Source: Erysipelotrichaceae bacterium MTC7 (GTDB lineage Bacteria; Bacillota_I; Bacilli_A; Erysipelotrichales; Erysipelotrichaceae). Taken from it: a stretch of DNA of 32,000 bases. The position numbers were made by a program, and so were the translations under genes. Location of the stretch: positions 52,417-84,416 of the forward strand of contig LVZN01000002.1 of assembly GCA_001695645.1 (NCBI GenBank), in the 5' to 3' direction. This document shows, in pieces, positions 6,417 to 32,000 of the stretch (its first letter is position 1; every line of letters begins with the position of its first letter). The notes beneath the pieces were generated by a model. It ran no database searches, was not told where the DNA came from, and worked only from the letters and a program-made list of their open reading frames with translations.

Positions 6417-6429
6417 GGAGGACAAGGCT

Positions 6430-6654: not shown

Positions 6655-6825
6655 TAACCGGGCAACCGAGCCGTCCGTGGGAGCGATCCTGCGGGCGGCA
6701 CAATGGGGTTCCCGGCAAGCCGTAAGGCTTGTTGGGGAGAGGACGAGCAGTGAAGTGAGTGAGCTTTCGTGTTTGCACGAAAACGAACGATACGGAACTT
6801 GCGAGGACGAGAAGGGAGTGAGACT

Positions 6826-7116: not shown

Positions 7117-7469
7117 TGAATATAGCAGCCATGCGGGTGCGCGTCACTTTCCAGAAAAATACGGCCATCGTCGACAAATACGGAAACCACAAAACCGGCT
7201 GGGCGGATTATTTCTCCTGCTGGGCGACCGCAGGCTCCAACAATGCGGTAAGCGGGACGGGGAGCGGCTCTGAAAGCACGGGCGTTGTTATCCGTTCCGA
7301 AGAGTCTCTTTCCTTTACCTGCAGGTGGTGTTCCGAACTTGCCGCCGTGGAATCCACGAAATACAGGATCGTCTGCGAGGGTAAGACCTATAACATCATT
7401 TATGTGAATCCGATGGGCTTCAAGCATAACAGCATCAAGTTTTCCTGCGAACTGGAGGGACAGTCATGA
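7116..7469 (+). CDS. head closure / head-tail adaptor (SPP1 gp16-like)
   Basis: TGATG overlap with the upstream gene. The size (117 aa) and position fit, and the protein has an MRVRVTFQK...NHKTGW-type beta-rich N-terminus. Confidence 0.7.
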   Translation: MNIAAMRVRVTFQKNTAIVDKYGNHKTGWADYFSCWATAGSNNAVSGTGSGSESTGVVIRSEESLSFTCRWCSELAAVESTKYRIVCEGKTYNIIYVNPMGFKHNSIKFSCELEGQS

Positions 7470-7846
7470 GCCGCCGGGTATCCGTGGACGGCATGGCGGA
7501 CGCCATCATGGAGGAACTGACGAAGTACTCCGATCTTGCCGCCGATGAACTGAAAGCCGCCGTGAAAGAGACGGCGCAGTCGGTACGCAAGGACATCCAG
7601 GCGTCCGCTCCGTCACGCACGGGGAAATATAAAAAATCGTGGTCGGTAAAGACTGTGAAGGAATCCTCGGAAACCATCGACCTGGTGGTGCATTCCAAAA
7701 ACCGCTATCAGATAGCGCACCTTCTGGAACATGGCCACGCCAAGCGAGGCGGAGGAAGGGTCGCGGCAAGACCGCATATCGCTCCCGCTGAACAGGCAGG
7801 AAACGAAAAGCTGGTAAAGACCATCGAGCAGAAGCTGAAAGGGTGA
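7466..7846 (+). CDS. HK97 gp10-family tail/neck protein
   Basis: ATGA overlap with the upstream gene. The motif SAPSRTGKYKKSWSVK ... AHLLEHGH is typical of the HK97 gp10 family. Confidence 0.8.
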   Translation: MSRRVSVDGMADAIMEELTKYSDLAADELKAAVKETAQSVRKDIQASAPSRTGKYKKSWSVKTVKESSETIDLVVHSKNRYQIAHLLEHGHAKRGGGRVAARPHIAPAEQAGNEKLVKTIEQKLKG

Positions 7847-8181
7847 TGCCTATGACACACGAAGAAATCGTAACCATGCTGGAGGAGGCAAACCTTCCTC
7901 TTGCGTATGACCATTTTGCGGAGGGCGAAAGTCCCGATCCGCCTTTTTTAATCTTCCTATTTCCGGGGACGGACAATATGTTCGCCGACAACAAGGTGTG
8001 GCAGAAGATCAACCAGCTGAACATCGAACTGTACACGGACGAAAAGTCGCCGGAAACGGAAGAAACAATCGAGGACATCCTGGACTCCTACGAGATCCCT
8101 TATGAGAAGTCGGAGTACTGGATCGAATCGGAAAAGATGTATGAAGTGCTTTATCAAACAGAAATTTTAGGAGGTAACTGA
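7846..8181 (+). CDS. hypothetical neck/tail-terminator-position protein
   Basis: TGATG overlap with the upstream gene. The call rests on its position between the gp10-like gene and the major tail gene. No family recognised. Confidence 0.5.
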   Translation: MPMTHEEIVTMLEEANLPLAYDHFAEGESPDPPFLIFLFPGTDNMFADNKVWQKINQLNIELYTDEKSPETEETIEDILDSYEIPYEKSEYWIESEKMYEVLYQTEILGGN

Positions 8182-19015: not shown

Positions 19016-19030
19016 CACTATGAAAACAAT

Positions 19031-19117
19031 ACACAGTTTCTGCCTCTGATATTTGTACAGATTATGCTCCGAATTACCTTGATAAATGCGCGGTTCAGAG
19101 TGATATATGTACATACC
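19031..19117 (+). promoter_or_regulatory. two-box promoter/operator cassette, copy C
   Basis: The upstream box TGATATTTGTACAGATTAT is at 19047-19065. The -35 TTGATA is at 19079-19084, followed by a 17-nt spacer and -10 GATATA at 19102-19107. The block GTTCAGAGTGATATATGTACATACC spans 19093-19117. Confidence 0.7.
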
Positions 19118-19139
19118 AAAACGAACGGAGGGTACGGCA

Positions 19140-19511
19140 ATGACAAGATTTGAAAGAGAATGGAACGGAGAACTTGGAGAGTTCTGGAAGAAGCATGCCC
19201 GCGAAGAGGCACAGCGGCTTTTAGACCAGGCAGACAAAATTGAGGTAGAGGATGACGGAGCCGCCAAGTGGAAGACGAACGGCTCATACCTCCCGGCAGA
19301 TGTGGTCGAGAAGCTGACTTTTGCCGGAGCGACCTGGTTTTCACCGGAGGCAACGGAAGCGAAGCGTGAGACGCAGATCGCAAAGGAACTGGAAGCCTAT
19401 CGCGGTAACCACAGAGGGCTTGACGCAGAGACGCTCGCCGAGGCAAGGGCGGCATTCGGGGAAGGAACCACGATCTGCGATGTCATAACCGGGGAGAAAA
19501 TCACCCTGTAA
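19140..19511 (+). CDS. hypothetical moron protein (123 aa)
   Basis: The inner ATG 19140 follows ACGGAGGG. It is bracketed by cassette C and the terminator at 19547-19577. No family recognised. Confidence 0.7.
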   Translation: MTRFEREWNGELGEFWKKHAREEAQRLLDQADKIEVEDDGAAKWKTNGSYLPADVVEKLTFAGATWFSPEATEAKRETQIAKELEAYRGNHRGLDAETLAEARAAFGEGTTICDVITGEKITL

Positions 19512-19546
19512 GGCAAAGCAACAAAACACAATATCATCGGAAAACG

Positions 19547-19577
19547 GCGATTGTCCATAGCGGGCAGTCGCTTTTTT
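19547..19577 (+). terminator. rho-independent terminator
   Basis: Stem GCGATTG / CAGTCGC (one G-U pair), an 11-nt loop, then TTTTTT at 19572-19577. Confidence 0.65.
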
Positions 19578-19616
19578 CATACAAAAATTCAACCAGAGAA
19601 AGGAAGGTACAAGCGT

Positions 19617-20039
19617 ATGAAAGAATTCTGGAACACCATTCAACTCATCTTTACGGCAATTGGCGGATGGCTGGGCTACTTCCTCGGCGGCTGTGACGGT
19701 CTGCTCATCGCTCTTGTGGCGTTCGTGGCAATCGACTACATCACGGGCGTCATGTGCGCTGTGGCGGACAAGAAGCTCTCCAGCGAGGTCGGCTTCAAGG
19801 GTATCTGCCGCAAGGTGCTTATTTTTCTTCTTGTGGGGATTGCCAACATCCTCGATGTGCAGGTCATCGGCACGGGCAGCGTCCTGCGCACGGCGGTGAT
19901 CTTTTTCTACATCTCCAACGAAGGTGTATCTCTCACGGAGAATGCCGCGCACCTGGGTCTGCCTATACCGGAAAAGCTGAAGGCGGTGCTGGAGCAGCTC
20001 CATGACCGCGACACCGATGGAAAGGACGGTGACGAGTAA
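19617..20039 (+). CDS. holin (phage_holin_4 / TcdE-like family)
   Basis: The inner ATG 19617 follows AAGGAAGG. Three predicted transmembrane segments are present. The motif DYITGVMCAVADKKLSSEVGFKGICRKVLIFLLVGIANILD is typical of this holin family. Confidence 0.85.
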   Translation: MKEFWNTIQLIFTAIGGWLGYFLGGCDGLLIALVAFVAIDYITGVMCAVADKKLSSEVGFKGICRKVLIFLLVGIANILDVQVIGTGSVLRTAVIFFYISNEGVSLTENAAHLGLPIPEKLKAVLEQLHDRDTDGKDGDE

Positions 20040-21535
20040 TGGCTTACACAAACAGTTCAATGGTGGCTTACACCAAACTAAGCCCGAACCATTCCGGGCT
20101 GCGGACACATTCCATCGACCGGATCACTCCTCACTGCGTGGTCGGTCAGTGTACGGCGGAGGGACTTGGGGACTGGTTTTATAAATCCAGTACCCAGGCA
20201 TCCTCGAATTACGGCATCGACAAGGACGGTCGTGTCGGAATGTATGTGGAGGAGAAGAACCGCTCCTGGTGTTCTTCCTCCAATGCCAATGACCAGAGGG
20301 CAATCACCATCGAGTGCGCATCCGACACCACGGAGCCGTATGCGTTCCGCGATATCGTATATCAGACGCTCATCAAGCTGTGCGTGGATATCTGCAAGCG
20401 AAACGGCAAGACGAAACTCCTGTGGTTTGGCGATAAGGACAAGACGCTTGCCTACGAACCGAAGTCCGGCGAGATGGTGCTGACCGTCCATCGGTGGTTC
20501 GCCAATAAGTCCTGTCCCGGCAACTGGATGTATGCCAGGATGGGTGATCTTGCGGAAAAGGTCACGGCGGCTCTCGGTAGTGGTACTGGGGGGACCGATG
20601 GTTCCGCAACTACACAAGGAACACAGGCTTCCGCCTTTTCTTCGCTTTCAGAGTCGGATGTTGTAAAGAGTGTAGGGACATTGTTTACGGCAGATCAGAA
20701 GAGAACAGGCATCCTCGCCTCGGTTTCGATGGCGCAGTTCATCCTTGAATCCGGATATGGCAAGTCGGAGCTGGCGCAGAACGCCAATAACGTGTTCGGC
20801 ATGAAATGCTCCCTCTCCGGCAACACGTGGAGCGGTTCGAACTGGGACGGAACGAGCAAGTATACCAAGCAGACGAAGGAACAGAACACGGACGGCAGCT
20901 ATACCACCATCACAGCGGACTTCCGCAATTACCCGTGTGTGGAGGATTCCATTGCCGACCATTCCGCATATCTGCTCGGCGCGAAGAACGGCAGCAAACT
21001 CCGCTATGACGGTCTGAAGGGCTGCACCGACTACAAGAAAGCGGCGCAGATCATCAAGGACGGCGGTTACGCCACAAGCCTTACCTATGTGCAGAACCTC
21101 TGCTCCATCATCGAGCGGTGGAACCTTACGCAGTTCGATGTGAAGGAAAGCGAGACGGCTGTCGCATGGTACCGTGTTCGTAAGACCTGGGCGGACGCCA
21201 AAACGCAGAAAGGCGCGTATAAGATTTTGGAGAACGCCAAGAAGTGCGCGGATGCCAATCCGGGATATAGTGTGTTCGATGTAAACGGTGTAAACATCTA
21301 CACACCGAACACAACATCTGATTCCGCGGCGGCGGTTCCGTTCTTCGTGAAGGTCAGCATCAGCGATTTGAACATCCGTAAGGGTCCCGGTACGGACTAT
21401 GCGAGGACGCAGTATATCCCTGTCGGCGTTTATACCATTGTGGAGGTCAAGTCTGGCAAGGGCTCGACCGCAGGATGGGGACGCTTAAAGAGCGGCGCGG
21501 GATGGATTTCGCTCGACTATACCGTCCGTGTATAA
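20039..21535 (+). CDS. multidomain endolysin: N-acetylmuramoyl-L-alanine amidase (Amidase_2) + glucosaminidase + wall-binding repeat + SH3b
   Basis: TAATG overlap with the holin. The amidase-type N-terminus reads ITPHCVVGQ...SSNYGIDKDGRVGMYVEEKNRSW...AITIECASD. The glucosaminidase motif is SVSMAQFILESGYGKSELAQNANNVFGMK. The C-terminal SH3b-like segment is LNIRKGPGTDY...GWGRLKSGAGWISLDY. Confidence 0.9.
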   Translation: MAYTNSSMVAYTKLSPNHSGLRTHSIDRITPHCVVGQCTAEGLGDWFYKSSTQASSNYGIDKDGRVGMYVEEKNRSWCSSSNANDQRAITIECASDTTEPYAFRDIVYQTLIKLCVDICKRNGKTKLLWFGDKDKTLAYEPKSGEMVLTVHRWFANKSCPGNWMYARMGDLAEKVTAALGSGTGGTDGSATTQGTQASAFSSLSESDVVKSVGTLFTADQKRTGILASVSMAQFILESGYGKSELAQNANNVFGMKCSLSGNTWSGSNWDGTSKYTKQTKEQNTDGSYTTITADFRNYPCVEDSIADHSAYLLGAKNGSKLRYDGLKGCTDYKKAAQIIKDGGYATSLTYVQNLCSIIERWNLTQFDVKESETAVAWYRVRKTWADAKTQKGAYKILENAKKCADANPGYSVFDVNGVNIYTPNTTSDSAAAVPFFVKVSISDLNIRKGPGTDYARTQYIPVGVYTIVEVKSGKGSTAGWGRLKSGAGWISLDYTVRV

Positions 21536-21660: not shown

Positions 21661-22080
21661 ATGGATGGATTTCAGAAGGAACAGATCAGGAACCTTCGGA
21701 GAGAAGGTATGAGTTATGCGAAAATCGCAAAGCAGGTCGATGTTTCCAGGGATGCGGTCATATCCTTTTGCCGCAGGAACGGTCTGCAGGAAATAAAAAA
21801 GCCGATTCCGGTTGTGAATACCGATGCAGCAGATGTCTGCCGTGAGTGTGGAAAGCCACTGATCCAGGTGGACGGGATGAAACGGCGCGTGTTCTGCTCA
21901 AAAGAATGCCGCGTTAAGTGGTGGAAGGAGCATCCGGAACGGCTGAATCAAAAGGCAGTGTATCAGTACACGTGTCCGCACTGCGGTAAGCCATTCTCTG
22001 CCTATGGCAACTCCAAGCGGAAGTATTGTTCTCATGCCTGCTATATCTCTGATCGATTCGGAGGTGGAGCGGATGAATGA
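21661..22080 (+). CDS. HTH plus double zinc-ribbon protein (candidate regulator / recombination accessory factor)
   Basis: RBS AGGAGG. The N-terminal HTH-like segment is QIRNLRREGMSYAKIAKQVDVSRDAVISFCRRNG. Two Cys4 clusters follow (CRECG...CSKEC and CPHCG...CSHAC). It lies directly upstream of the recombinases. Confidence 0.7.
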   Translation: MDGFQKEQIRNLRREGMSYAKIAKQVDVSRDAVISFCRRNGLQEIKKPIPVVNTDAADVCRECGKPLIQVDGMKRRVFCSKECRVKWWKEHPERLNQKAVYQYTCPHCGKPFSAYGNSKRKYCSHACYISDRFGGGADE

Positions 22081-22293: not shown

Positions 22294-24201
22294 ATGCCGA
22301 AAATCACGAGAATCAAGCCGGGTATCAAGGCACTCCCGGCAAAGAAAAAAGTGGCGGCCTACGCAAGGGTCTCCAAGGACACCGAGCGGCTGCTTCACTC
22401 CGTTTCCGCACAGGTAAGCTATTACAGCGATCTCATCCAGAAGAATCCGGAATGGGAATATGCAGGCGTGTACGCTGACTCCGGCATAACAGGCACTCTC
22501 GTCGCAGGACGCAGTGAGTTCGGACGGTTGCTGGAGGACTGCGAGGCTGGCAAGATTGACATCATCCTTTGCAAGTCGATTTCCAGGTTTGCGAGAAACA
22601 CGGTCGATCTGCTGAATACGGTCAGACATTTGAAGGACATCGGTGTGGAGGTTCGGTTCGAGAAAGAGCAGATCAATTCGATGAGCGGGGATGGAGAACT
22701 GATGCTTTCCATCCTCGCTTCTTTTGCCCAGGAAGAGAGCCGGAGCATTTCCGAAAATGTGAAATGGGGCATCCACAAGCGGTTCAAAAACGGAGAGATC
22801 GGTGCGGCAAACAAGCACATCCTTGGCTACCGGTACGATGATGAACTGAAAAAGTATGTCATCATTCCCGAAGAAGCCGAGGCGGTCAGATGGATGTTCC
22901 AGATGTACATCGATGGCGTTACCCTGCGGGACATTGCGGATAGCATGAACAATGCGGGCATCCGTACCACGCTGGGAAATGACTTTCAGGAAGCCTCAGT
23001 ACGGCAGCTGATTTTCAACGAGGTCTATGCCGGGGATATCCGCCGACAGAAATGCTACATCGAAGATCCCATCACCAAAAGGAAGGTGCCAAATCGCGGA
23101 GAGCTGCCGCAGTATTACATGGCAGACAGCCACGAGGCTATCATCGACCGCGACACCTACGCAAAGGTAAAAGCGGAAATGGAGCGACGGGCTTCGCTGC
23201 TGAATCCGACATATTGCTTTACGGGAAAGTTCAAATGCGCCGTATGCGGGGCGAACTTTACGAGGAAGAAAGGCAGGGTCAGGGGCAAGGAATATGTGGA
23301 CTGGATCTGCCGCAGCAAAAAAGAGCCTGGAGTCACCTGCAAGAGCCACAATTATCCTGAACATAAGCTGATGGATATTTGCGCCGAACTGATGGAAACG
23401 GACGGATTCGATGAAGAAGCGTTCGAGAGGAATGTTAAGCAGATCACCTCGCTTGCGGACGGCAGTATTGAGATGCAGCTTTATGGCGGCGAGGTCAGAC
23501 AGTGGCAGATGCCGCCAAAGCCGGTCAAGCCGAAGAAAATAAAGCCGGAGAGCAAGCGTCCAAGAAACCTGTTCGACGGGAAAATCTTCTGCGGCAAGTG
23601 TGGCAGACGGTTTGGCAGAGCCATCAGCGATACAACGGACGGCGGTCACCTTTACTGGTACTGCCGAGCAAAGAGCAATCACGGAATCACCTGCGACAGT
23701 GTCAACTATCCCGATTCAGAGATCAGGGACATCTTCTGCCGGGTCATGGGGAAGAAAACCTTTGACGAGGATTACTTCACAAAAACGGTCGACCGCATGG
23801 TGGTTCAAGCCTCCGGCAGTATTGACTTTCATCTGAAGGACGGCACGGTCAAGACATATGAGACGCTCAAGCTGCGGAGCAACAGGCACGAGACCACATC
23901 CACGGATGAGTTCACCGGGATGATTCGGTGCGCCTGCTGCGGAAACATTTACCACAGATACTGCGGATACGGAAAGTACGTTTACTGGCGATGCTCCGGC
24001 AAGCACAAGGTCAGGACGGAATGCAACGGGCAGGACCTGGCGGATTTCAACATCCGTAAGGTTTCCGCCTACATTCTCGGCATGGATGATTTTGACGGGA
24101 AAGCATTCACGGAGCAGATCGACCACATCACAGCATTGGAAGACGGAAGTCTGGAATACTTTTTTAAAGACAGGAGGGCAAAAAAGTGGCAAAGAACGTA
24201 A
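22294..24201 (+). CDS. large serine recombinase 1 (635 aa) with a triplicated zinc-ribbon module
   Basis: The catalytic N-terminus reads KKVAAYARVSKD ... YADSGITGT ... SISRFARNT ... LASFAQEESRSISENVKWG. A recombinase domain follows, then three ~95-aa Cys4 modules. Confidence 0.9.
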   Translation: MPKITRIKPGIKALPAKKKVAAYARVSKDTERLLHSVSAQVSYYSDLIQKNPEWEYAGVYADSGITGTLVAGRSEFGRLLEDCEAGKIDIILCKSISRFARNTVDLLNTVRHLKDIGVEVRFEKEQINSMSGDGELMLSILASFAQEESRSISENVKWGIHKRFKNGEIGAANKHILGYRYDDELKKYVIIPEEAEAVRWMFQMYIDGVTLRDIADSMNNAGIRTTLGNDFQEASVRQLIFNEVYAGDIRRQKCYIEDPITKRKVPNRGELPQYYMADSHEAIIDRDTYAKVKAEMERRASLLNPTYCFTGKFKCAVCGANFTRKKGRVRGKEYVDWICRSKKEPGVTCKSHNYPEHKLMDICAELMETDGFDEEAFERNVKQITSLADGSIEMQLYGGEVRQWQMPPKPVKPKKIKPESKRPRNLFDGKIFCGKCGRRFGRAISDTTDGGHLYWYCRAKSNHGITCDSVNYPDSEIRDIFCRVMGKKTFDEDYFTKTVDRMVVQASGSIDFHLKDGTVKTYETLKLRSNRHETTSTDEFTGMIRCACCGNIYHRYCGYGKYVYWRCSGKHKVRTECNGQDLADFNIRKVSAYILGMDDFDGKAFTEQIDHITALEDGSLEYFFKDRRAKKWQRT

Positions 24202-25766
24202 TCACAATACCCGCCACCATCAGCAAGTTCACAGCCTCTCCCCTCGGCAGCAGGAAAAAGCGGAAGGTTGCCGCCTATGCCCGCGTTTCAACGGACAGGG
24301 ACGAACAGCTGACGAGCTACGAGGCACAGGTGGACTACTACACGAATTACATCAAAGGGCGCGAGGATTGGGAGTTTGTCGCCGTGTATGCTGACGAAGG
24401 CATAACCGGCTGCAATACGACGCATAGAGACGGTTTCAATTCTATGGTCGAGGATGCCCTGGCGGGAAGAATCGACCTCATCGTGACAAAAAGCGTGAGC
24501 CGCTTCGCAAGGAACACGGTAGACAGCCTTACGACCATCCGAAAGCTGAAGGAGAACGGCACGGAGTGCTATTTCGAGAAGGAGAACATCTGGACATTTG
24601 ACGGCAAGGGCGAATTGCTCCTGACCATCATGTCAAGCCTTGCACAGGAAGAGAGCCGCTCCATTTCGGAGAACTGCACCTGGGGACAGAGAAAGCGTTT
24701 CCAGGACGGCAAGGTCACGGTGCCGTTCAAGCGTTTCCTCGGATACGACCGGGGCGAGGACGGCAACCTGGTGGTAAACGAGGAGCAGGCGGTCATCGTC
24801 CGCAGAATCTACGGGCTTTTCCTGCAGGGAAAAACACCGTATGCGATTGCGCGGCAGCTCACCGAGGAGGGCATCCCGACGCCGGGCGGTAAAAAGAACT
24901 GGGGCAAGAAAACGGTCGAGAGCATACTTACCAACGAAAAGTACAAAGGCGACGCCCTGCTCCAGAAGGTCTACACTACGGACTTCCTGACAAAGAAAAA
25001 GAAGAAGAACGAGGGCGAGGTGCCGCAATACTATGTGGAAGGAAACCATGAAGCGATTATCCCTCCCGCACAGTTTGACAGGGTGCAGAAGGAGATGCAG
25101 AGACGGTTCGGTGATACGGACCGGCACGGCTGCGTGAGCATTTTCTCCAGCAAAATCCGATGCGGTGACTGCGGCGGCTTTTACGGCTCGAAGGTGTGGC
25201 ACTCCAATGACAAGTACAGAAAAGTCATATGGCGGTGCAATCACAAGTACGATGACGGAAAGAACTGCTCCACGCCTCATTTGGACGAGGACACCATCAA
25301 GGCATTGTACCTCAAAGCCCTGCGGATTCTCGGAGAGGAGCGGGACGAGATCATCGCCACCTTTGAAGCCATCAAGGACAAGATGTACGATACCACGGAG
25401 CTGGAGACAGAACAGGCAGCCTTGCAACAGGAGGTCATGGTGGTAACGGAACTGGTCGAGCAGTGCATCAGCGAGAACGCCCATGTTGCACAGAATCAGA
25501 AGGATTACCAAAAGAAGTATGATGCTCTCTCCGAACGCTATGACAGGACAAAGGAACGGCTGGATAAGGTCAGCGGCAGGATCATGGAGCGTCAGGCAAA
25601 GCGGGAAATGATCGAGGCGTTCCTTCATGACCTGGCAGAGATGGATGAGGATGTACAGGAATTCACGGATGACCTTTGGTTCAACCTTCTCGACCATGTG
25701 ACGGTTTTCTCGAAGAAGGATGTGCGCTTCACCTTCAAGAACGGGACGGAGATCAGTGTGAAATAA
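24186..25766 (+). CDS. large serine recombinase 2 (526 aa)
   Basis: GTG start lies 8 nt after GGAGGG and overlaps recombinase 1 by 16 nt. The catalytic region reads VAAYARVSTDRDEQ ... YADEGITG ... SVSRFARNT. It has a single Zn ribbon (CGDCGG...WRCNHKY...C), a long coiled-coil segment, and a DUF4368-like C-terminus. Confidence 0.9.
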   Translation: MAKNVITIPATISKFTASPLGSRKKRKVAAYARVSTDRDEQLTSYEAQVDYYTNYIKGREDWEFVAVYADEGITGCNTTHRDGFNSMVEDALAGRIDLIVTKSVSRFARNTVDSLTTIRKLKENGTECYFEKENIWTFDGKGELLLTIMSSLAQEESRSISENCTWGQRKRFQDGKVTVPFKRFLGYDRGEDGNLVVNEEQAVIVRRIYGLFLQGKTPYAIARQLTEEGIPTPGGKKNWGKKTVESILTNEKYKGDALLQKVYTTDFLTKKKKKNEGEVPQYYVEGNHEAIIPPAQFDRVQKEMQRRFGDTDRHGCVSIFSSKIRCGDCGGFYGSKVWHSNDKYRKVIWRCNHKYDDGKNCSTPHLDEDTIKALYLKALRILGEERDEIIATFEAIKDKMYDTTELETEQAALQQEVMVVTELVEQCISENAHVAQNQKDYQKKYDALSERYDRTKERLDKVSGRIMERQAKREMIEAFLHDLAEMDEDVQEFTDDLWFNLLDHVTVFSKKDVRFTFKNGTEISVK

Positions 25767-25781
25767 CGGCAGCAGAACACG

Positions 25782-25820
25782 GCCGGACACCTTGCGGATT
25801 GCGGGATGTCCGGCTTTCTC
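25782..25820 (+). terminator. terminator-like hairpin after recombinase 2
   Basis: Stem GCCGGACA / TGTCCGGC (8 bp), a 17-nt loop, then TTTCTC. The weak T-tract limits confidence to moderate. Confidence 0.45.
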
Positions 25821-25822: not shown

Positions 25823-25954
25823 TGCAAAATTAAAATGTACGGCAACAGCAGAGCAAGGCAAAATTATAAAGTATGGCAAAATCAAAAAGTGTAGGGCAAA
25901 GTTAAAAGGTTCAAGGCAAAATCAAAAGGTATAGGGGCAAAATGTAATTGTATC
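25823..25954 (+). repeat. iteron-like array of ~18-21 bp direct repeats
   Basis: Five clear units are visible: GGCAAAATTATAAAGTAT (25857), GGCAAAATCAAAAAGTGTAG (25875), GGCAAAGTTAAAAGGTTCAA (25895), GGCAAAATCAAAAGGTATAG (25915) and GGGCAAAATGTAATTGTATC (25935). Weaker units lie at 25823 and 25841. Confidence 0.8.
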
Positions 25955-25957
25955 GCT

Positions 25958-27325
25958 TTGGGATACTACTTAGATGATGGTATCTCCGGTACAAACACTA
26001 AAAAGCGTGACGAATTTAATCGTATGATTGCAGAGTGTATGGATGGTAACATCGACATGGTTATTACTAAATCCATCAGCCGATTTGCACGTAACACCCT
26101 AGACTGCCTTCAATATATTAGACAGCTCAAAGATAAGAACATATCCGTCTACTTTGAAAAAGAGAATATCAACACCATGGATGCCAAAGGTGAGGTTTTG
26201 CTGACTATTATGGCATCTTTGGCACAACAGGAAAGCCAGAGCCTTTCACAAAACGTTAAGCTTGGGCTACAGTACCGATACCAACAAGGAAAGGTGCAGG
26301 TCAACCATAAGCGGTTTATGGGCTACACGAAAGATGAAGATGGAAATTTAATTATTGTCTCCGAAGAAGCTGAGATTATCAAACGCATCTACCGAGAATA
26401 CCTTGAAGGTCAGAGTCTAGTAGGCATTGGTCGAGGCCTTGAAAAGGATGGTATTTTAACAGCAGCAGGAAAACCAAGATGGCGACCGGAATCGGTTAAG
26501 AAGATCCTCCAAAATGAAAAATACATCGGAGATGCCCTTCTGCAAAAGACTGTCACAGTAGATTTTCTAACCAAGAAACGAGTTAAGAATGAAGGTCATC
26601 TTCCCCAGTATTATGTTGAAAATAGCCATGAGGCGATTATTCCTAAAGAGTTATTTTTGCAGGTGCAGGAAGAGATTCATCGAAGAAGCAATATCTACAC
26701 AGGAGAAGGCAAGAACAAACGAATTTATAGTAGCAAGTATGCTTTAAGTGCCATCACCTTCTGTGGAGATTGTGGCGATATTTATAGGAGAACCTATTGG
26801 AATATTCATGGTAGAAAAGAATTTGTCTGGCGATGCGTGACTAGAATCGAGCAAGGTCCTGAAGTTTGTAAGAACCGAACCGTAAAAGAAGATAAACTCT
26901 ATGGTGCTGTAATGACCGCAATTAATAAGCTACTTGCAGGTGGCAACAACATGATAAAGACCCTGGAAGAGAACATTCATGCTGTGATTGGTGAAACGAC
27001 AGAATACCAAATTTCAGAGATTAACAACTTACTGGAGGAAAAGCAAAAAGAACTTATCAAGCTGGCGAACAAGGGTCAAGACTATGAACACCTAGCAGAT
27101 GAGATTGATGAGCTGAGAGACAAGCGACAGATCCTTTTAGTAGAAGATGCCTCCCTCAGTGGCGAGAACGAGCGAATCAATGAGCTGATTGAATTTATCC
27201 GCAAGAACAAATTCCGCACCTTAGAATATGATGATAAGCTTGTAAGGAAGATAATCCAGAGCGTTACAGTCTATGAAGACCACTTCGTCATAGCCTTCAA
27301 ATCTGGCATCGAAATGGAAATATGA
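25958..27325 (+). pseudogene. 5'-truncated large serine recombinase (AT-rich; lacks the catalytic-Ser segment)
   Basis: The ORF begins inside the catalytic domain at [19 protein letters not shown], equivalent to residues ~66 onward of recombinase 2. No YARVS-type nucleophile motif is present, and the only start is an artefactual TTG. The rest is intact ([23 protein letters not shown], Zn ribbon CGDCG...WRC, coiled coil, DUF4368-like end). Confidence 0.8.
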
Positions 27326-27342
27326 AAACCAGAAGTAAATAG

Positions 27343-27378
27343 CCCATGACTCTACAGTAGAGTTGTGGGTTTTCTTTT
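27343..27378 (+). terminator. rho-independent terminator
   Basis: Stem CCCATGACTCTA / TAGAGTTGTGGG (12 bp with two G-U pairs), loop CAG, then TTTTCTTTT. Confidence 0.6.
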
Positions 27379-27409
27379 GCTTGTGATTATAATAATATTT
27401 TAATAACTA

Positions 27410-27438
27410 TTGTATTTATCAACCAAATGGTTTATAAT
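27410..27438 (+). promoter_or_regulatory. sigma-A type promoter for the XRE/resistance operon
   Basis: The -35 TTGTAT is at 27410-27415, followed by a 17-nt spacer and a perfect TATAAT at 27433-27438. This lies 28 nt upstream of the XRE start. Confidence 0.55.
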
Positions 27439-27466
27439 ATTCTTAGCGTAAACTTGGAGGTGCTGT

Positions 27467-27691
27467 ATGACTACGGCAGAAATGATTAAAGAACTGTGTG
27501 AGCAAATGAATATAAGTGTTTCCGAACTTGCTAGACGTATTGGCCAGACTCCACAGAATTTCAATAAAAAATTACAACGAGAAACAGTAACCTTGGATGA
27601 GTTGAAGGCCATTGCTGATGTGCTAGGTGTCAAGTTTGTGCAGGCATTTATTTTACCAGATGGAGAAGAAATAAAAATATCTAACGAATAA
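27467..27691 (+). CDS. XRE-family helix-turn-helix transcriptional regulator (74 aa)
   Basis: RBS GGAGGTG. The HTH segment ISVSELARRIGQTPQNFNKKLQRETVTLDELKAIADVLGV is typical of the XRE family. Confidence 0.8.
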   Translation: MTTAEMIKELCEQMNISVSELARRIGQTPQNFNKKLQRETVTLDELKAIADVLGVKFVQAFILPDGEEIKISNE

Positions 27692-27705
27692 AGGAGGATG
27701 TTTAT

Positions 27706-28575
27706 ATGGTAGGTAATATTATTAAATCAGTAGCAGAGAAATTATCCTCTCTGTCTTATATAGAAGGTATTGTTTTAGGTGGTTCACGTGCAAGGGGCAC
27801 CCATACAGAGGATTCGGATATAGATATCGGCATCTATTACAATTCAGAATCATTTGACATAAATACTATTAATCAATTCGCTACAAAGCTGGATGATGAG
27901 CATAGAAATAACCTTGTTGTACCTCCCGGAGCATGGGGTGATTGGATTAATGGCGGCGGATGGTTAGTCATAAACGGGTATCATGTGGATTTAATTTTAC
28001 GTGATATTAAACGTGTGGAACAAATAATGAAAGATACAGAGCACGGAATTGTTACTGCCAATTATCAGACTGGGCATCCCCATGGTTATATTAGTGCAAT
28101 GTATCGAGGAGAATTAGCGATTAGCAAAATACTATATGCTAAGAATGAAAGCTTATGCGAATTAAAAAAACAGGCAGAAACTTATCCCAATGCTTTGCAG
28201 AAAAGTTTAGTTAACTTTTTTATGTTTGAAGCAGGGTTCTCTTTAATGTTTGTAAAAGCAAATTCGGGAACAGACGATAAATATTATATTGCGGGTCATG
28301 TTTTTCGTATAGTTTCATGTTTAAATCAAGTGTTATTTGCATGTAATAATGCTTATTGTATCAACGAAAAGAAAGCTATAAAACTGCTTGAAACTTTTGA
28401 ACATAAACCTGAAAAATATACCGAGAAGGTAAATCATATTTTTGAAGTACTCGGTATCTCACTTTTTGAATGCTACGACATGACCGAGAAGCTTTATAAT
28501 GAAGTGAATGAAATTGTATCGGAGATAAATAACTTTTTAAACGAGGAGAGTTCAGATGAAAGAAAACAAATATGA
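27706..28575 (+). CDS. nucleotidyltransferase-domain protein (NTase N-terminus with helical C-terminal domain), substrate unknown
   Basis: RBS AAGGAGG. The pol-beta-type NTase motif is GGSRARGTHTEDSDIDIGIY. By recollection it is the orf found upstream of the methyltransferase and aadE in Tn5405/pRE25-type clusters. Confidence 0.8.
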   Translation: MVGNIIKSVAEKLSSLSYIEGIVLGGSRARGTHTEDSDIDIGIYYNSESFDINTINQFATKLDDEHRNNLVVPPGAWGDWINGGGWLVINGYHVDLILRDIKRVEQIMKDTEHGIVTANYQTGHPHGYISAMYRGELAISKILYAKNESLCELKKQAETYPNALQKSLVNFFMFEAGFSLMFVKANSGTDDKYYIAGHVFRIVSCLNQVLFACNNAYCINEKKAIKLLETFEHKPEKYTEKVNHIFEVLGISLFECYDMTEKLYNEVNEIVSEINNFLNEESSDERKQI

Positions 28576-29290
28576 TGATAATATATTTTTTCAAAAATAC
28601 AGTCAAATGAGTCGCTCGCAGAAAGGACTGGCTGGTGCGGGAGAATGGGAGACTTTGAAAAAGATGCTACCTGATTTTAAGGGTAAGCGTGTGCTTGATT
28701 TAGGATGCGGCTATGGATGGCACTGTATATATGCGATGGAAAACGGTGCTTCCTCTGTAGTAGGTGTTGATATTTCTCATAAAATGCTCGAAGTAGCAAA
28801 AGGAAAAACCCATTTTCCACAGATTGAATATGAATGCTGTGCCATAGAAGATGTGGATTTCCCAGAGGAGAGCTTTGATGTAATACTAAGTTCGCTTGCG
28901 TTTCATTATGTAGCAGACTATGAGAATTTAATAAAAAAGATATATAGGATGCTGAAGGCTGGTGGCAATTTAGTTTTTACAGTTGAACATCCTGTTTTTA
29001 CTGCTCATGGAACACAAGACTGGTATTATAACGAAAAAGGAGAAATACTGCATTTCCCGGTGGACAATTATTATTATGAGGGCAAACGGACAGCTATGTT
29101 TTTGGAAGAAAAGGTTACAAAATATCATAGAACACTGACCACATATCTAAATACACTGCTTTCAAATAGTTTTATAATAAATCAGATTGTGGAGCCACAG
29201 CCGCCAGAGAACATGATGGATATTCCGGGGATGGCGGATGAAATGCGACGCCCAATGATGCTGATTGTATCGGCAAAAAAGAAGATGTAA
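28556..29290 (+). CDS. class I SAM-dependent methyltransferase
   Basis: SAM-binding motif I is VLDLGCGYGW, with downstream FDVILSSLAFHYV and LKAGGNLVFTVEHP. It overlaps the upstream gene by 20 nt. Confidence 0.85.
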   Translation: MKENKYDDNIFFQKYSQMSRSQKGLAGAGEWETLKKMLPDFKGKRVLDLGCGYGWHCIYAMENGASSVVGVDISHKMLEVAKGKTHFPQIEYECCAIEDVDFPEESFDVILSSLAFHYVADYENLIKKIYRMLKAGGNLVFTVEHPVFTAHGTQDWYYNEKGEILHFPVDNYYYEGKRTAMFLEEKVTKYHRTLTTYLNTLLSNSFIINQIVEPQPPENMMDIPGMADEMRRPMMLIVSAKKKM

Positions 29291-29322
29291 TAATATAGAA
29301 AAAATAAACGAGGAGTATGTAA

Positions 29323-30186
29323 ATGAGATCAGAAAAAGAAATGATGGATTTAGTACTTTCTTTAGCAGAACAGGATGAACGTATTCGAATTGTGACCCTT
29401 GAGGGGTCACGCGCAAATATTAATATACCTAAAGATGAATTTCAGGATTATGATATTACATATTTTGTAAGTGATATAGAACCGTTTATATCTAATGATG
29501 ACTGGCTTAATCAATTTGGGAATATAATAATGATGCAAAAGCCGGAGGATATGGAATTATTCCCACCTGAAGAAAAGGGATTTTCCTATCTTATGCTATT
29601 TGATGATTACAATAAAATTGATCTTACCTTATTGCCCTTGGAAGAGTTAGATAATTACCTAAAGGGCGATAAATTAATAAAGGTTCTAATTGATAAAGAT
29701 TGTAGAATTAAAAGGGACATAGTTCCGACTGATATAGATTATCATGTAAGAAAGCCAAGCGCAAGGGAGTATGATGATTGCTGCAATGAATTTTGGAATG
29801 TAACACCTTATGTTATTAAAGGATTGTGCCGCAAAGAGATACTGTTTGCAATCGATCATCTGAACCAGATTCTACGGTTTGAACTACTTAGGATGATGTC
29901 GTGGAAGGTTGGGATAAAGACAGAATTTTCATTAAGTGTTGGGAAAAATTATAAGTATATTAACAAATACATTGATGAAGATCTATGGAATAGATTATTA
30001 TCTACATATCGCATGGATTCCTATGAAAATATTTGGAAGTCATTATTTATATGCCACCAATTGTTCAGGGAAGTGTCCAAAGAGGTAGCAGAACTACTGG
30101 GGTTTGATTATCCAGAGTATGGTAAGAACATAACAAGATATACCGAGGACATGTATAAAAAATATGTTGAAAATGACTATTTTTAA
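29323..30186 (+). CDS. aadE: aminoglycoside 6-nucleotidyltransferase ANT(6)-I (streptomycin resistance)
   Basis: The N-terminal ~190 aa (MRSEKEMMDLVLSLAEQDERIRIVTLEGSRANINIPKDEFQDYDITYFVSD...) matches my recollection of AadE/ANT(6)-Ia almost verbatim. Synteny with the methyltransferase upstream and apt-spw downstream supports the call. Confidence 0.9.
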   Translation: MRSEKEMMDLVLSLAEQDERIRIVTLEGSRANINIPKDEFQDYDITYFVSDIEPFISNDDWLNQFGNIIMMQKPEDMELFPPEEKGFSYLMLFDDYNKIDLTLLPLEELDNYLKGDKLIKVLIDKDCRIKRDIVPTDIDYHVRKPSAREYDDCCNEFWNVTPYVIKGLCRKEILFAIDHLNQILRFELLRMMSWKVGIKTEFSLSVGKNYKYINKYIDEDLWNRLLSTYRMDSYENIWKSLFICHQLFREVSKEVAELLGFDYPEYGKNITRYTEDMYKKYVENDYF

Positions 30187-30229
30187 AGATTAGCAAAGAT
30201 TATTAACCATAAGCAAGGGGTGTAAATGT

Positions 30230-30757
30230 ATGGAAAGTACTGATGTTATAAATGAAATTAGAGGTATATTACCTCGTAACTCAATTGGAAAATATGATTT
30301 ACTAACTATTTTTACACATAAAACCGTTTTTGATAAAATTGTAAAAGTACTATCATTGGATTTTCAAAATAAAGTAGATTATGTGGCTGCCCCAGAAGCA
30401 ATTGGATGGATACTAGGCACTGCCATAGCCAAAGAACTTGGAGTGGGGTTTATTGGAGTAAGAAAAGGTGATAAGCTGCCATACGCAAAAGAAGAGATTA
30501 TTTCGACACATTTTACCGACTATTCAGGTCAAGATAAAAGCTTTGAAATATCTAAGAGTTCTATTGTGAGGAACAAAAGAGTTTTGATTGTAGATGATTG
30601 GATAGAGACAGGTTCTCAAATGAAGGCTTTAATAGCTTTGTTAGAGAAATTGGATTGCAGCATTATTGGGTTGGCTACTATTGGGATTGATATAAATGAG
30701 GTTACTCAAAAATGGATAGACAGCAGTTTTGTAGCTTATATTGGCTCAAACATATAA
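30230..30757 (+). CDS. apt: adenine phosphoribosyltransferase-like (type I PRTase) protein
   Basis: The PRPP-binding motif is VLIVDDWIETGSQ. The size is 175 aa. Its position between aadE and spw matches the published aadE-apt-spw cluster. Confidence 0.8.
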   Translation: MESTDVINEIRGILPRNSIGKYDLLTIFTHKTVFDKIVKVLSLDFQNKVDYVAAPEAIGWILGTAIAKELGVGFIGVRKGDKLPYAKEEIISTHFTDYSGQDKSFEISKSSIVRNKRVLIVDDWIETGSQMKALIALLEKLDCSIIGLATIGIDINEVTQKWIDSSFVAYIGSNI

Positions 30758-30888
30758 TAAACCGAAAGAAAATCTTGAATCAAAATTTTGGATGGCGTTA
30801 ATTTACAATACAACGAAAGATGTTTACTCTTTTTTTATAAATTTTAAGAGGCGTTAAAAAACAGTTTTCAGACGAAAGGAGATCGAAG

Positions 30889-31677
30889 TTGAGTATAGAT
30901 TTAAGTAACAAAAAAATTCCGAAAGAAGCAATTCAAGCATTAAAAACTATAGCGGAACTACTTGATAATATGTTAATTGGGGTGTATTTGTATGGTTCGG
31001 CAGTAATGGGTGGTTTACGTATGAATAGCGATGTAGATATTTTGGTAATAACAAATCAAAGTTTATCTGAAAAAACTCGAAGGAATCTTACAAATAGGTT
31101 AATGCTTATATCTGGGAAAATAGGAAACATAAAAGATATGAGGCCTCTTGAAGTTACGGTCATAAATCAAAAGGATATTGTCCCTTGGCATTTCCCCCCC
31201 AAATATGAATTTATGTATGGCGAGTGGCTAAGAGAGCAGTTTGAAAAGGGAGAAATTCCTGAGTCGACTTATGATCCGGATTTAGCAATACTTTTAGCAC
31301 AACTAAGAAAAAATAGTATTAACCTTTTGGGACCAAAGGCAACAGAAGTAATTGAGCCTGTGCCAATGACAGATATTCGAAAAGCAATTAAAGAATCGTT
31401 GCCCGGGTTGATAACTAGCATTAAAGGTGACGAACGCAATGTGATTTTAACTTTAGCCAGAATGTGGGTGACAGCATCTACTGGTGAAATCAGATCAAAA
31501 GATCTGGCAGCTGAATGGGCAATACCTCAATTACCTTATGAGCATGCCATTTTACTTGACAAAGCAAGAAAGGCTTATCTAGGAGGGTATATTGATAAGT
31601 GGAAAGGAATGGATTCTGAGGTGACTGAACTCGTTAATAATATGAAGAAGTCTATAGAGTCTTCCCTTAATCTCTAA
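30889..31677 (+). CDS. spw: spectinomycin 9-O-nucleotidyltransferase ANT(9)
   Basis: TTG start lies 8 nt after AGGAG. It shows clear collinear similarity to Tn554 Aad9/Spc as I recall it (GVYLYGSAV.GGLR..SDVDILV, RPLEVTVIN, YDPDLAILLAQ.RKNSI.L.GP, IKGDERNVILTLARMW). The spw assignment rests on synteny. Confidence 0.85.
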   Translation: MSIDLSNKKIPKEAIQALKTIAELLDNMLIGVYLYGSAVMGGLRMNSDVDILVITNQSLSEKTRRNLTNRLMLISGKIGNIKDMRPLEVTVINQKDIVPWHFPPKYEFMYGEWLREQFEKGEIPESTYDPDLAILLAQLRKNSINLLGPKATEVIEPVPMTDIRKAIKESLPGLITSIKGDERNVILTLARMWVTASTGEIRSKDLAAEWAIPQLPYEHAILLDKARKAYLGGYIDKWKGMDSEVTELVNNMKKSIESSLNL

Positions 31678-31689
31678 AAGGCTGGTGTT

Positions 31690-31887
31690 GAGAATTCCAT
31701 TGATAGGTTCTCTCATACCGAAATTTCTTAAAATGGTCAAAAACCGCTGGATATGTTCCCGTCTACCGATAGTTCCAAAAATGCTGCTGATATGTTTCCA
31801 CAGACGGGCAAAGTAATATGACATCAATGCCATCAACTCGAGCCATGTGGAAAGTGTTGTTGTCCTAAAAACAATCAAGTAAATCAT
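31690..31887 (-). other. unassigned minus-strand ORF fragment (possible gene remnant)
   Basis: This is the only open frame in the 31.68-31.89 kb gap, part of track ORF 31579..31887. It has no SD that I can see and no recognised family. Its 3' part overlaps spw and is certainly not coding. Confidence 0.15.
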
Positions 31888-31941
31888 TTAGATAAAGTAA
31901 AGGAAGGGGCTGTGACACTTAGTACAGCTTCAAATCATAAA

Positions 31942-31980
31942 AATAACGCCTAAACTCGTAAGAGAATAGGCGTTATTTTT
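31942..31980. terminator. strong hairpin terminator (potentially bidirectional), followed by an extended -10-like TGGTATAAT
   Basis: Perfect 11-bp stem AATAACGCCTA / TAGGCGTTATT with a 14-nt loop. The T-run on the + side and the A-run upstream give a T-run on the - side. TGGTATAAT lies at 31980-31988. Confidence 0.6.
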
Positions 31981-32000
31981 GGTATAATTTATTTGTGAAA

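What the first reader, a model, noticed from the sequence alone, without database searches (positions are those of the whole stretch)
25823..25954. Iteron-like array of five to seven ~20-bp direct repeats exactly at the GC break and at the truncation point of the third recombinase
The consensus is GGCAAAATCAAAAGGT(N4), with a period of 18-21 bp.
- **Units:** starts at 25857, 25875, 25895, 25915 and 25935, with degenerate units at 25823 and 25841.
- **Location:** the array fills the space between the terminator of recombinase 2 and the first retained codons of the truncated AT-rich recombinase.
- **What it is not:** it is not a CRISPR array, since there are no spacers. It is not an IS terminal inverted repeat that I recognise.
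- **Possibilities:** it could be a plasmid-type iteron origin remnant carried with the resistance segment, a set of arm-type binding sites for a recombination accessory protein at attR, or a partition/centromere-like site.

Its position at a junction between two mobile elements makes it the best candidate for a functional cis site in the window.
Basis: seen in the sequence. Interest (0 to 1): 0.65.

Follow-up and report, generated by a model that had tools for sequence, protein, structure and literature searches.

The report
Repeat array on a prophage attachment arm
The ~20-bp repeats are real and belong to the right end of a gut prophage, next to the exact point where this phage has inserted into the recombinase gene of another mobile element (here a resistance island), so they are probably protein-binding sites of the phage's attachment site, not a plasmid origin.

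Summary
Observation confirmed. There are five good units of GCAAAAT-N-AAAA-N-GT (starts 25857, 25875, 25895, 25915, 25936) plus a degenerate one at 25823. The "unit" at 25841 is a different box.

The array travels with the GC-rich prophage, not with the AT-rich resistance segment. About 23 contigs carry the same Rec2, terminator, array and TTGTATCGCTTTGGGATACTACTTA-GA. At window 25973/25974 they diverge into about 20 different large-serine-recombinase genes, always at the codons for D(D/E)GxSG, and into two non-recombinase look-alike sites.

Six left junctions join different recombinase N-terminal fragments to one phage left end at the same GA. One contig (L023) shows both ends inside one recombinase gene. 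The phage therefore integrates site-specifically into recombinase genes of other mobile elements, and the array sits on the integrase-proximal arm of attP/attR.

Across 8 variants the motif core varies far less (3/78 columns) than the neighbouring coding sequence (48/198) or the spacers (21/40). Copy number varies from 5 to 7.

Function is inferred: an accessory protein-binding platform at an unusual serine-integrase attachment site. The iteron-origin and "carried with the resistance segment" readings are refuted.

The parts
21661..22080 (+). 139-aa HTH/zinc-ribbon protein at the head of the integration module. It is a candidate accessory DNA-binding protein or directionality factor.
   Evidence: Pfam HTH_7/GcrA/YacG hits. 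PHROG 2308, function unknown. Conserved upstream of Rec1 in relatives.
22294..24201 (+). Rec1, a large serine recombinase of 635 aa with three zinc-ribbon stretches.
   Evidence: Pfam Resolvase + Recombinase + Zn_ribbon_recom x3. Internal repeats in BLASTP. PHROG 95, integrase.
24186..25766 (+). Rec2, a large serine recombinase of 526 aa. It is 40% identical to the family of genes the phage targets.
   Evidence: Pfam. BLASTP against the E. faecium recombinase.
24363..24420 (+). attB-like site inside the phage's own Rec2 gene (GA at 24393-24394).
   Evidence: Matches the attB consensus derived from 26 junctions.
25781..25815 (+). Terminator hairpin of Rec2, followed by CTTTCTCT.
   Evidence: RNA fold dG -27 kcal/mol, z -3.5. 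Terminator scan.
25823..25840 (+). Unit U0, degenerate (TGCAAAATTAAAATGTAC).
   Evidence: Conserved in all variants.
25841..25857 (+). A different box (GGCAACAGCAGAGCAAG). It is an exact GACAACAGC in variants L014, L026 and L212, and matches the 21-bp box repeated five times at the phage left end.
25857..25935 (+). Units U1-U4 of GCAAAAT-N-AAAA-N-GT (starts 25857, 25875, 25895, 25915).
   Evidence: Core conservation across variants.
25936..25956 (+). Unit U5, degenerate (GGCAAAATGTAATTGTATCGC). It overlaps the outer motif of the attP half-site.
25947..25971 (+). Phage half-site (P arm): TTGTATCGCTTTGGGATACTACTTA.
   Evidence: Invariant in 23 contexts. An imperfect inverted copy lies at the phage left end.
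25972..25973 (+). Crossover dinucleotide GA. It is the first two bases of the Asp codon of the target motif.
   Evidence: It is the only sequence shared by all 22 right and 6 left junctions.
25974..27325 (+). Target side: C-terminal 450 codons of a resident large serine recombinase. It is 96.9% identical to residues 67-520 of an E. faecium plasmid recombinase and lacks the catalytic N-terminus.

Best explanation
**Shown**
- Window 1-25973 is the right part of a temperate gut phage. Its relatives at about 70% nucleotide identity are 'Ca. Heliusvirales' phages.
- Its integration module is HTH protein, SHOCT, Rec1, Rec2, terminator, repeat array, then half-site.
- The phage has integrated by a GA crossover (25972-25973) into the coding sequence of another element's large serine recombinase. 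The crossover lies at the codons for ...(F/Y)A|D(D/E)GxSG.
- Here the disrupted gene is the recombinase of an ant(6)-apt-spw resistance island.
- The same phage end is joined to about 20 different recombinase genes in other genomes.
- The phage left end is joined to six different recombinase N-terminal fragments at the same GA.
- The array is therefore part of the phage-side (integrase-proximal) arm of attR, which is the P arm of attP.
- Its motif core is conserved much more strongly than the neighbouring coding DNA. Spacers and copy number drift.

**Inferred**
- The 5-7 phased units (about two helical turns apart) are binding sites on double-stranded DNA for a phage protein. Candidates are Rec1 with its three zinc-ribbon domains, Rec2, or the 139-aa HTH protein.
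- This protein would build or control the recombination complex at this attachment site, for example by raising local recombinase concentration, setting directionality, or distinguishing attP from the many attB-like sequences, including the one inside the phage's own Rec2 gene.
For: **Ownership**
- Eight contigs are 100% identical through 25974 and then diverge.
- Fifteen more junctions come from a metagenome scan, and one more from IMG/VR.
- Homology to the intact E. faecium recombinase starts at 25972, and that plasmid has no array.
- There is no plasmid or phage database match to the array.

**Direction of insertion**
- The truncated recombinases are followed directly by housekeeping genes, for example PPDK in L005.
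- Two junctions lie in non-recombinase look-alike sites (L018, L028).
- Six left junctions have different N-terminal fragments.
- L023 holds both ends inside one recombinase gene.
- L208 links the left end to sequence 100% identical to the window.

**attP-like dyad.** TTGTATC...GA...GATACAA, with the outer motif at -25..-19 on both arms.

**Selection on the motif.** Core positions are variable in 3/78 columns. This compares with 48/198 for the two slower codon positions of Rec2 (p=2.4e-5), 16/55 for the stop-to-array spacer (p=6.6e-5), and 21/40 for non-core array positions.

**Acts as DNA, not RNA.** No Rfam hit. The array is less structured than shuffles. No promoter-like site.

**Both arms carry phased repeats.** The left end has TGACAACAGC five times at exactly 21 bp, plus one GCAAAAT.
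Against: - No binding or recombination experiment exists, and the binder is unknown.
- Characterised large serine integrases need only a site of about 50 bp and no accessory DNA (established knowledge).
- Relatives with orthologous Rec1/Rec2 (NatCom_11578, 9287, 35866, IMGVR 15666929) have only a hairpin or palindrome after Rec2 and no array.
- Part of the variation between variants looks like exchange between units. That process would by itself spare positions shared by all units.
- The excised attP junction was not found in IMG/VR, so attP is reconstructed rather than observed.
- All copies were retrieved with a probe that includes the half-site and part of U5, so the conservation of those bases is not informative.
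Confidence: 0.45

Rival explanations
1. Operator array for a transcription regulator. The units bind a phage repressor or activator that controls genes around attP, such as the integrase operon or the left-end XRE operon in the circular form. They play no direct part in strand exchange.
For: - The left arm has a phased array (TGACAACAGC x5) whose box also forms an inverted pair around the promoter of an XRE-family gene.
- One copy of that box lies inside the window array at 25841.
- The motif core is under selection.
Against: - No promoter-like site lies in or next to the array.
- The array lies downstream of the Rec2 terminator and, in the prophage, faces only the disrupted target gene.
- The GCAAAAT-type motif occurs nowhere else in about 60 kb of phage sequence examined, apart from one copy at the left end.
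Confidence: 0.2
2. Functionless by-product: tandem duplication of the outer part of the attP arm by slippage or unequal exchange, tolerated because it lies in a dead space after the terminator.
For: - Copy number differs between variants (one unit fewer in L015/L021, one more in L022).
- The last unit grades into the half-site.
- Two deletion derivatives break inside the array (L023, L027).
- Close relatives of the recombinases work without any array.
- Exchange between units could mimic position-specific conservation.
Against: - Core positions have accumulated far fewer point changes than first and second codon positions of the adjoining gene in the same genomes (3/78 vs 48/198).
- The array is retained in every full-length variant seen (11 distinct versions).
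Confidence: 0.2
3. Iteron-type replication origin or partition site, belonging either to the resistance segment or to the phage.
For: Direct repeats of about 20 bp at a spacing of 18-21 bp in an A+T-rich stretch resemble plasmid iterons in form.
Against: - The array does not travel with the resistance segment or with any plasmid.
- No Rep, ParA or true ParB gene lies nearby. The neighbours are two recombinases and a terminator.
- The phage replication genes (PolA, VapE primase-helicase, SNF2 helicase) lie more than 30 kb away.
- The array is split from the other attP arm in the prophage.
Confidence: 0.06
4. Purely structural DNA element: phased A-tracts give an intrinsic bend or stiff segment that helps synapsis, with no dedicated binding protein.
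For: - Each unit carries two A4 tracts, and units recur every 20-21 bp.
- The conserved positions are mainly the A-tracts and flanking G/C.
Against: - The two A-tracts within a unit are only 6-7 bp apart, so their bends partly cancel. This is my own estimate; no curvature was computed.
- GC...GT positions outside the A-tracts are equally conserved.
Confidence: 0.07

Closest known systems
attP sites of large-serine-integrase phages (phiC31, Bxb1, A118, SPbeta SprA)
   Same: - The site lies directly after the integrase gene(s).
- It is an imperfect inverted repeat of about 50 bp around a 2-bp crossover.
- Integration is precise, with no duplication beyond the dinucleotide.
- Rec1 and Rec2 have the Resolvase + Recombinase + Zn-ribbon architecture. 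The closest solved full-length relative is SPbeta SprA/YokA.
   Different: - There are two recombinases in tandem.
- A conserved array of 5-7 direct repeats abuts one half-site, and a second array lies on the other arm.
- The target is not one host locus. It is a motif-coding segment shared by many divergent recombinase genes (22-40% protein identity between targets).
TnpX/TndX of Tn4451 and Tn5397 (clostridial large serine 'transposases')
   Same: - GA dinucleotide at the crossover and relaxed, multi-site targeting (recalled from the literature on Tn4451/Tn5397, not tested here).
- Some of the targets hit here are themselves TnpX-like genes with DUF4368 (L004, L008).
   Different: - Rec1 and Rec2 lack DUF4368.
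- The element is a phage of about 55-60 kb.
- Targets share a defined 50-bp consensus inside one gene family.
Accessory sites of small serine resolvases (res sites II/III of Tn3 and gamma-delta) and arm-type sites of lambda-type tyrosine integrases
   Same: Repeated protein-binding sites lie on the element side of the crossover site and shape the recombination complex and its direction. This is what the array looks like.
   Different: - Res sites are inverted pairs bound by the resolvase itself.
- Lambda arm sites are bound by an N-terminal domain that serine integrases lack.
- Neither has been described for large serine integrases.
Gene-disrupting prophages ('active lysogeny': SPbeta in spsM, skin in sigK, phi10403S in comK)
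   Same: A phage with a serine integrase sits inside a coding sequence, and precise excision would restore the gene.
   Different: The disrupted gene belongs to another mobile element and is its integrase. The interaction is between mobile elements, not between phage and host pathway.
SSV1-type integrases whose gene is split by integration
   Same: A recombinase gene is cut in two at the crossover site.
   Different: - Here the split gene is the target's, not the invader's. The phage's own Rec1 and Rec2 stay intact.
- For other elements that end at the same codon (tail families A-C), an SSV-like reading could not be excluded.

Membership tests
Plasmid iteron origin | Tandem direct repeats of 17-22 bp at a spacing of about 22 bp | tested here: met
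   Period 18-21 bp, 5-6 units.
Plasmid iteron origin | Cognate Rep initiator gene adjacent | tested here: not met
   The neighbours are Rec1, Rec2 and a truncated recombinase. There is no Rep family hit.
Plasmid iteron origin | Travels with a replicon or with the resistance segment | tested here: not met
   No PLSDB match. 467 plasmids match only from 25972 onward. The array always occurs with the phage end.
Large-serine-integrase attP | Imperfect inverted repeat of about 50 bp around a central dinucleotide, next to the integrase gene | tested here: met
   TTGTATCGCTTTGGGATACTACTTA-GA-AAGGTAAACCCAAGAATTGATACAA, reconstructed from right and left ends. The excised junction itself was not found.
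Large-serine-integrase attP | The same 2-bp crossover in all attL and attR junctions, with no target duplication | tested here: met
   GA in 22 right and 6 left junctions.
Large-serine-integrase attP | Recombination of attP x attB catalysed by the encoded integrase | not testable with these tools
   Needs an in vitro or in vivo assay.
Arm-type / accessory recombination sites | Repeated motif on the element arm beside the core site, distinct from the core half-site | tested here: met
   Units at 25823-25956 abut the half-site at 25947-25971.
Arm-type / accessory recombination sites | Motif conserved by selection across element variants | tested here: met
   Core 3/78 variable columns vs 48/198 (coding) and 21/40 (spacers). 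Caveat: exchange between units.
Arm-type / accessory recombination sites | Same motif present on both arms | tested here: inconclusive
   The left arm has a different 21-bp array and only one GCAAAAT. The window array holds one copy of the left-arm box.
Arm-type / accessory recombination sites | Bound by the recombinase or an accessory protein, and required for normal recombination | not testable with these tools
   No binding data.
Arm-type / accessory recombination sites | Feature shared by related recombination modules | tested here: not met
   Four relatives with Rec1/Rec2 orthologues lack an array. One (NatCom_3357) has CCGCAA x5 beside a palindrome.
CRISPR array | Repeats separated by unique spacers of similar length | tested here: not met
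   Units are contiguous, with 3-6 nt between motifs.
Partition (centromere-like) site | Adjacent parA/parB-type genes | tested here: not met
   None within the window's right 6 kb of phage DNA.

The most novel reading that the evidence does not exclude
This phage lineage has a serine-integrase attachment site of a new design. It has two recombinases and a conserved array of accessory sites on the integrase-proximal arm, with a second array on the other arm. Its natural attB is the DNA that encodes the conserved ...YAD|DGxSG segment of other elements' large serine recombinases. The phage thereby finds a landing site in any host that carries such elements. It knocks out a rival's integrase reversibly, and it needs the arrays to tell its own attP apart from the many attB-like sequences, including one in its own Rec2 gene.
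Probability: 0.3. Interest if true: 0.8.

Novelty: new variant of a known kind. Interest (0 to 1): 0.6.

Why it matters
**For the array.** If it is functional, it would be the first accessory-site architecture described for a large serine integrase. These enzymes are valued in genome engineering because they are thought to need only two short sites. Accessory sites that tune direction or site choice would be both mechanistically new and useful.

**For the surrounding biology.**
- A phage that homes into the integrase genes of other prophages, conjugative elements and resistance islands is a clear case of conflict or hitch-hiking between mobile elements.
- It explains how one phage can lysogenise many hosts, because the target is supplied by the mobilome itself.
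- It physically links a prophage to aminoglycoside and spectinomycin resistance clusters (ant(6)-apt-spw here, ant(6)-sat4-aph(3')-III in L002).
- A large survey of serine-integrase target genes does not list recombinase genes among the enriched targets (PMC10083194).

Tried and rejected
**Searches that found nothing**
- BLAST of the array against plasmids and phages: no match.
- A palindromic full-site pattern and the reconstructed attP junction in IMG/VR: none found.
- Rfam and RNA folding: no RNA reading.
- Promoter scan: none in the array.
- Literature searches for phages or elements that integrate into recombinase genes, or for attachment-site data on Heliusvirales: nothing found.

**Walking to the phage left end**
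- This went through the helicase, DUF2800 and a Hachiman-like gene.
- It cost two protein searches and the genome scan and did not reach the end. The Hachiman cargo is specific to one variant.
- The left end was finally found through N-terminal recombinase fragments and an IMG/VR pattern scan.

**Model considered at length: the reverse direction**
- In this model the variable recombinase-bearing elements carry attP inside their own gene (SSV-like) and integrate into a site on the phage.
- It was rejected for this phage for four reasons:
  - The truncated genes are followed by housekeeping genes.
  - Two junctions lie in non-recombinase sites.
  - Six left junctions share one phage end.
  - L023 shows both ends in one gene.
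- It remains possible for other 'tail' families at the same codon.

**Other ideas**
- The array as a degenerate coding remnant of a recombinase N-terminus: the three frames show nothing recombinase-like.
- The extra zinc-ribbon domains of Rec1 explaining the array: not supported by relatives, which have similar Rec1 proteins but no array.

Full report
**1. The observation**

The sequence at 25823-25956 reads TGCAAAATTAAAATGTAC GGCAACAGCAGAGCAAG GGCAAAATTATAAAGTAT GGCAAAATCAAAAAGTGTAG GGCAAAGTTAAAAGGTTCAA GGCAAAATCAAAAGGTATAGG GGCAAAATGTAATTGTATCGC.

- Tandem Repeats Finder gives period 20, 4.4 copies, score 75-81.
- The repeat finder gives copies at 25823, 25857, 25875, 25895, 25915 and 25936.
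- The 16-mer consensus with up to 3 mismatches occurs five times in the array and once elsewhere. Shuffles give 0.32 hits, and no shuffle reaches six.
- GC falls from about 0.54 to about 0.42 here.
- Rec2 stops at 25766. A strong hairpin lies at 25781-25815 (dG -27 kcal/mol, z -3.5).

The stretch at 25841 is not a unit of this motif.

**2. Which flank owns the array**

- The AT-rich side matches 467 plasmids, mostly Enterococcus, at about 95% identity, but only from window 25972 onward.
- In E. faecium plasmid NZ_LR135260.1 the recombinase is intact (520 aa). Its first 69 codons bear no resemblance to the array.
- The array has no match in PLSDB or in the phage collection.
- Looking up Rec2 by exact sequence gave seven contigs. 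All are 100% identical to the window through ...GGGATACTACTTAGA (25974). They then diverge into different recombinase genes, each followed by different genes.
- A metagenome scan with a 26-mer from the end of the array gave 15 more loci, and IMG/VR gave two.
- In all there are 22 distinct right-hand junctions.
- Twenty of these are in large-serine-recombinase genes as different as 22-40% protein identity, including TnpX-like genes with DUF4368. They are always in frame at D(D/E)G(I/W/F/K/H/Y)(S/T)G.
- Two (L018, L028) are in non-recombinase DNA that resembles the right half of the consensus.

The array therefore belongs to the GC-rich prophage.

**3. Who inserted into whom**

The alternative was that the variable elements integrate next to the phage. 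It had to be taken seriously for three reasons:

- N-terminal fragments of the same recombinase family, cut at the same codon, are common.
- These fragments sit at the right end of several prophages, in the order SHOCT, recombinase, 138-aa protein, N-terminal fragment.
- They carry several kinds of 'tail'. One tail family (L198-L201, L204) is the reverse complement of the window half-site in 20 of 27 positions.

The question was settled as follows:

- The L204 tail is followed by a 21-bp repeat array, an XRE-family gene and an RlmN/Cfr-like radical-SAM gene.
- The same 2 kb (99.85% identical) occurs in L023, joined to a different N-terminal fragment. In L023 it is connected, through pieces identical to window 17841-20113 and 25304-25496, to the window array, the half-site, GA and a recombinase C-terminal part.
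- An IMG/VR scan for the left arm gave four more junctions, each with a different N-terminal fragment, all reading ...N-GA-AAGGTAAACCC.
- L208 links this left end to sequence 100% identical to window 6323-8034 and 17294-18456.
- In L005 the truncated gene abuts the pyruvate-phosphate-dikinase gene. In L003 and L004 it is followed by ordinary chromosomal genes.

The phage is therefore the inserted element. The only bases common to all junctions are GA (25972-25973).

The reconstructed attP is ...TTGTATCGCTTTGGGATACTACTTA-GA-AAGGTAAACCCAAGAATTGATACAA..., with the outer motif TTGTATC/GATACAA placed symmetrically. The excised junction itself was not found in IMG/VR, so attP is inferred.

The attB consensus is cCngAATGGgagtTgGtcGgnaTCTAtGCt-GA-tGAnGGnatntCcGGnAcnAAc. 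The phage's own Rec2 gene, which is 40% identical to the E. faecium target, carries a good copy with GA at 24393-24394.

**4. The array across variants**

- Eleven distinct versions were recovered.
- Copy number varies. L015 and L021 lack one unit, and L022 has one extra.
- Overall identity between variants (87-94%) is similar to that of the last 300 nt of Rec2, but the changes are very unevenly placed.
- In eight collinear variants the core positions (GCAAAAT, AAAA, GT) vary in 3 of 78 columns.
- This compares with 21 of 40 non-core array columns, 16 of 55 columns between the stop codon and the array (p=6.6e-5), and 48 of 198 columns for the two slower codon positions of Rec2 (p=2.4e-5).
- Some differences between variants look like swaps between units, which would spare shared positions. 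The comparison with neighbouring DNA argues for real constraint nonetheless.

Other checks on the array:

- It has no Rfam match.
- It is less structured than shuffled sequence on both strands.
- It has no sigma-70-like promoter.
- It has no further copies in about 60 kb of phage sequence, apart from one GCAAAAT at the left end.

**5. The other arm**

- The left end carries TGACAACAGC five times at exactly 21 bp.
- It also has an inverted copy 13 nt outside the half-site, and an inverted pair around the promoter of the XRE gene.
- The window stretch at 25841 is a one-mismatch copy of this box. It is an exact copy in L014, L026 and L212.
- In the circular phage, both arms of attP would therefore be flanked by phased repeats of two kinds.

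**6. Relatives**

- The nearest database phages ('Ca. Heliusvirales', about 70% nucleotide identity) have the same module of HTH protein, small SHOCT-like ORF, Rec1 and Rec2.
- After Rec2 they have only a hairpin or palindrome (NatCom_11578, 9287, 35866, IMGVR 15666929).
- NatCom_3357 has CCGCAA five times beside a palindrome.
- The array is thus specific to the lineage that targets recombinase genes. It is not a general property of these recombinases.
- The papers on this phage order say nothing about attachment sites.
- A survey of serine-integrase targets does not list recombinase genes.

**7. Interpretation**

- Firmly shown: the array is the integrase-proximal arm of a prophage attachment site, at a phage/resistance-island junction. 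It is not a plasmid iteron remnant.
- Most likely, but unproven: it is a set of protein-binding sites that help assemble or control recombination at this unusual site (0.45).
- Rivals:
  - a regulatory operator array (0.2)
  - a tolerated duplication without function (0.2)
  - a structural bend (0.07)
  - an origin or partition site (0.06)
- What makes the locus interesting is less the array alone than the system it belongs to. This is a phage that homes into the integrase genes of other mobile elements, including related prophages (L205) and resistance islands (window, L002).

Noticed in passing
window 25974-32000: The AT-rich segment is a resistance island. It holds the truncated recombinase, an HTH gene, a nucleotidyltransferase, a class I methyltransferase, ANT(6), a phosphoribosyltransferase (apt) and ANT(9)/Spw. 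It is about 95% identical to Enterococcus faecium plasmids. In L002 the same phage abuts an ant(6)-sat4-aph(3')-III cluster instead.
   Followed up: partly
window 24363-24420: The phage's own Rec2 gene contains a good match to the attB consensus (GA at 24393-24394), in the same orientation as attP about 1.6 kb downstream. This raises the question of how self-deletion, or superinfection into a resident copy, is avoided or used.
   Followed up: partly
L204 642-750 and 875-925; L023 300-410: The phage left end has TGACAACAGC five times at exactly 21-bp spacing. It also has an inverted copy next to the half-site and an inverted pair around the promoter of a 90-aa XRE-family gene. This is probably that protein's operator set.
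   Followed up: partly
L023 169-4829; L208; L027 7024-7123: These are small derivatives that keep one or both attachment arms but have lost most phage genes. L023 is a 4.7-kb element with XRE, a radical-SAM gene and scraps of tail, lysin and Rec2. Two of them break inside the array. They could be decayed prophages, satellites mobilised by the phage, or assembly artefacts.
   Followed up: partly
L194 8320-8400, L196, L202 10208-10290, L197 3390-3479, L203 2920-3113: Other recombinase N-terminal fragments end at exactly the same GA but continue into unrelated sequences. One continuation is a hairpin followed by a ParB/type-IV-secretion conjugative element. Another is the 3' end of a zinc-ribbon gene. 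A third is an 'xYNxRLIxFD' tail. Either several unrelated elements target this codon, or these recombinase genes carry their own attP and are split on integration. This is unresolved.
   Followed up: partly
L204 1331-2464 (= L023 999-2132): The phage left end carries an RlmN/Cfr-family radical-SAM methyltransferase. It scores RlmN 275 bits against a cut-off of 290, and Cfr models about 180 bits against cut-offs of 468-550. It is not a recognised Cfr, but it is a possible ribosome-modifying cargo gene.
   Followed up: partly
L110 88-3384: A ruminant variant of the phage carries a DUF1837 protein plus a large helicase (a Hachiman-like defence pair) upstream of the sigma-like gene. The pair was not seen in the other variants recovered (L109, L111).
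   Followed up: no
L023 4990-5075: Four direct repeats of GAGGGGTAAGTT at 19-21 bp lie just after a TTGATACAATTTGAC motif and before a phage-type RNA ligase gene. This is another phased repeat array beside a half-site-like sequence.
   Followed up: no
L012 9893-9965 (phage NatCom_3357): Downstream of Rec2 this relative has CCGCAA five times next to the palindrome AAGACCGCA...TGCGGTCTT. This may be an independent case of repeats beside a serine-integrase attP.
   Followed up: no
L205 1-5101: The element whose recombinase gene is hit here is itself a related prophage (holin/lysin region 72% identical to window 19547-20577). This is one prophage nested in the integrase gene of another.
   Followed up: partly
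window 21941-21956: There is a single 3-mismatch copy of the repeat consensus (GGCTGAATCAAAAGGC) inside the 139-aa HTH gene. It is probably chance.
   Followed up: no
L184 7200-7330: A distant relative has ATTGACCTnTTCCCTCGAAC-like direct repeats (two clear copies plus a degenerate upstream one) between a zinc-ribbon gene and the first phage genes. This is another repeat set at a prophage left end.
   Followed up: no
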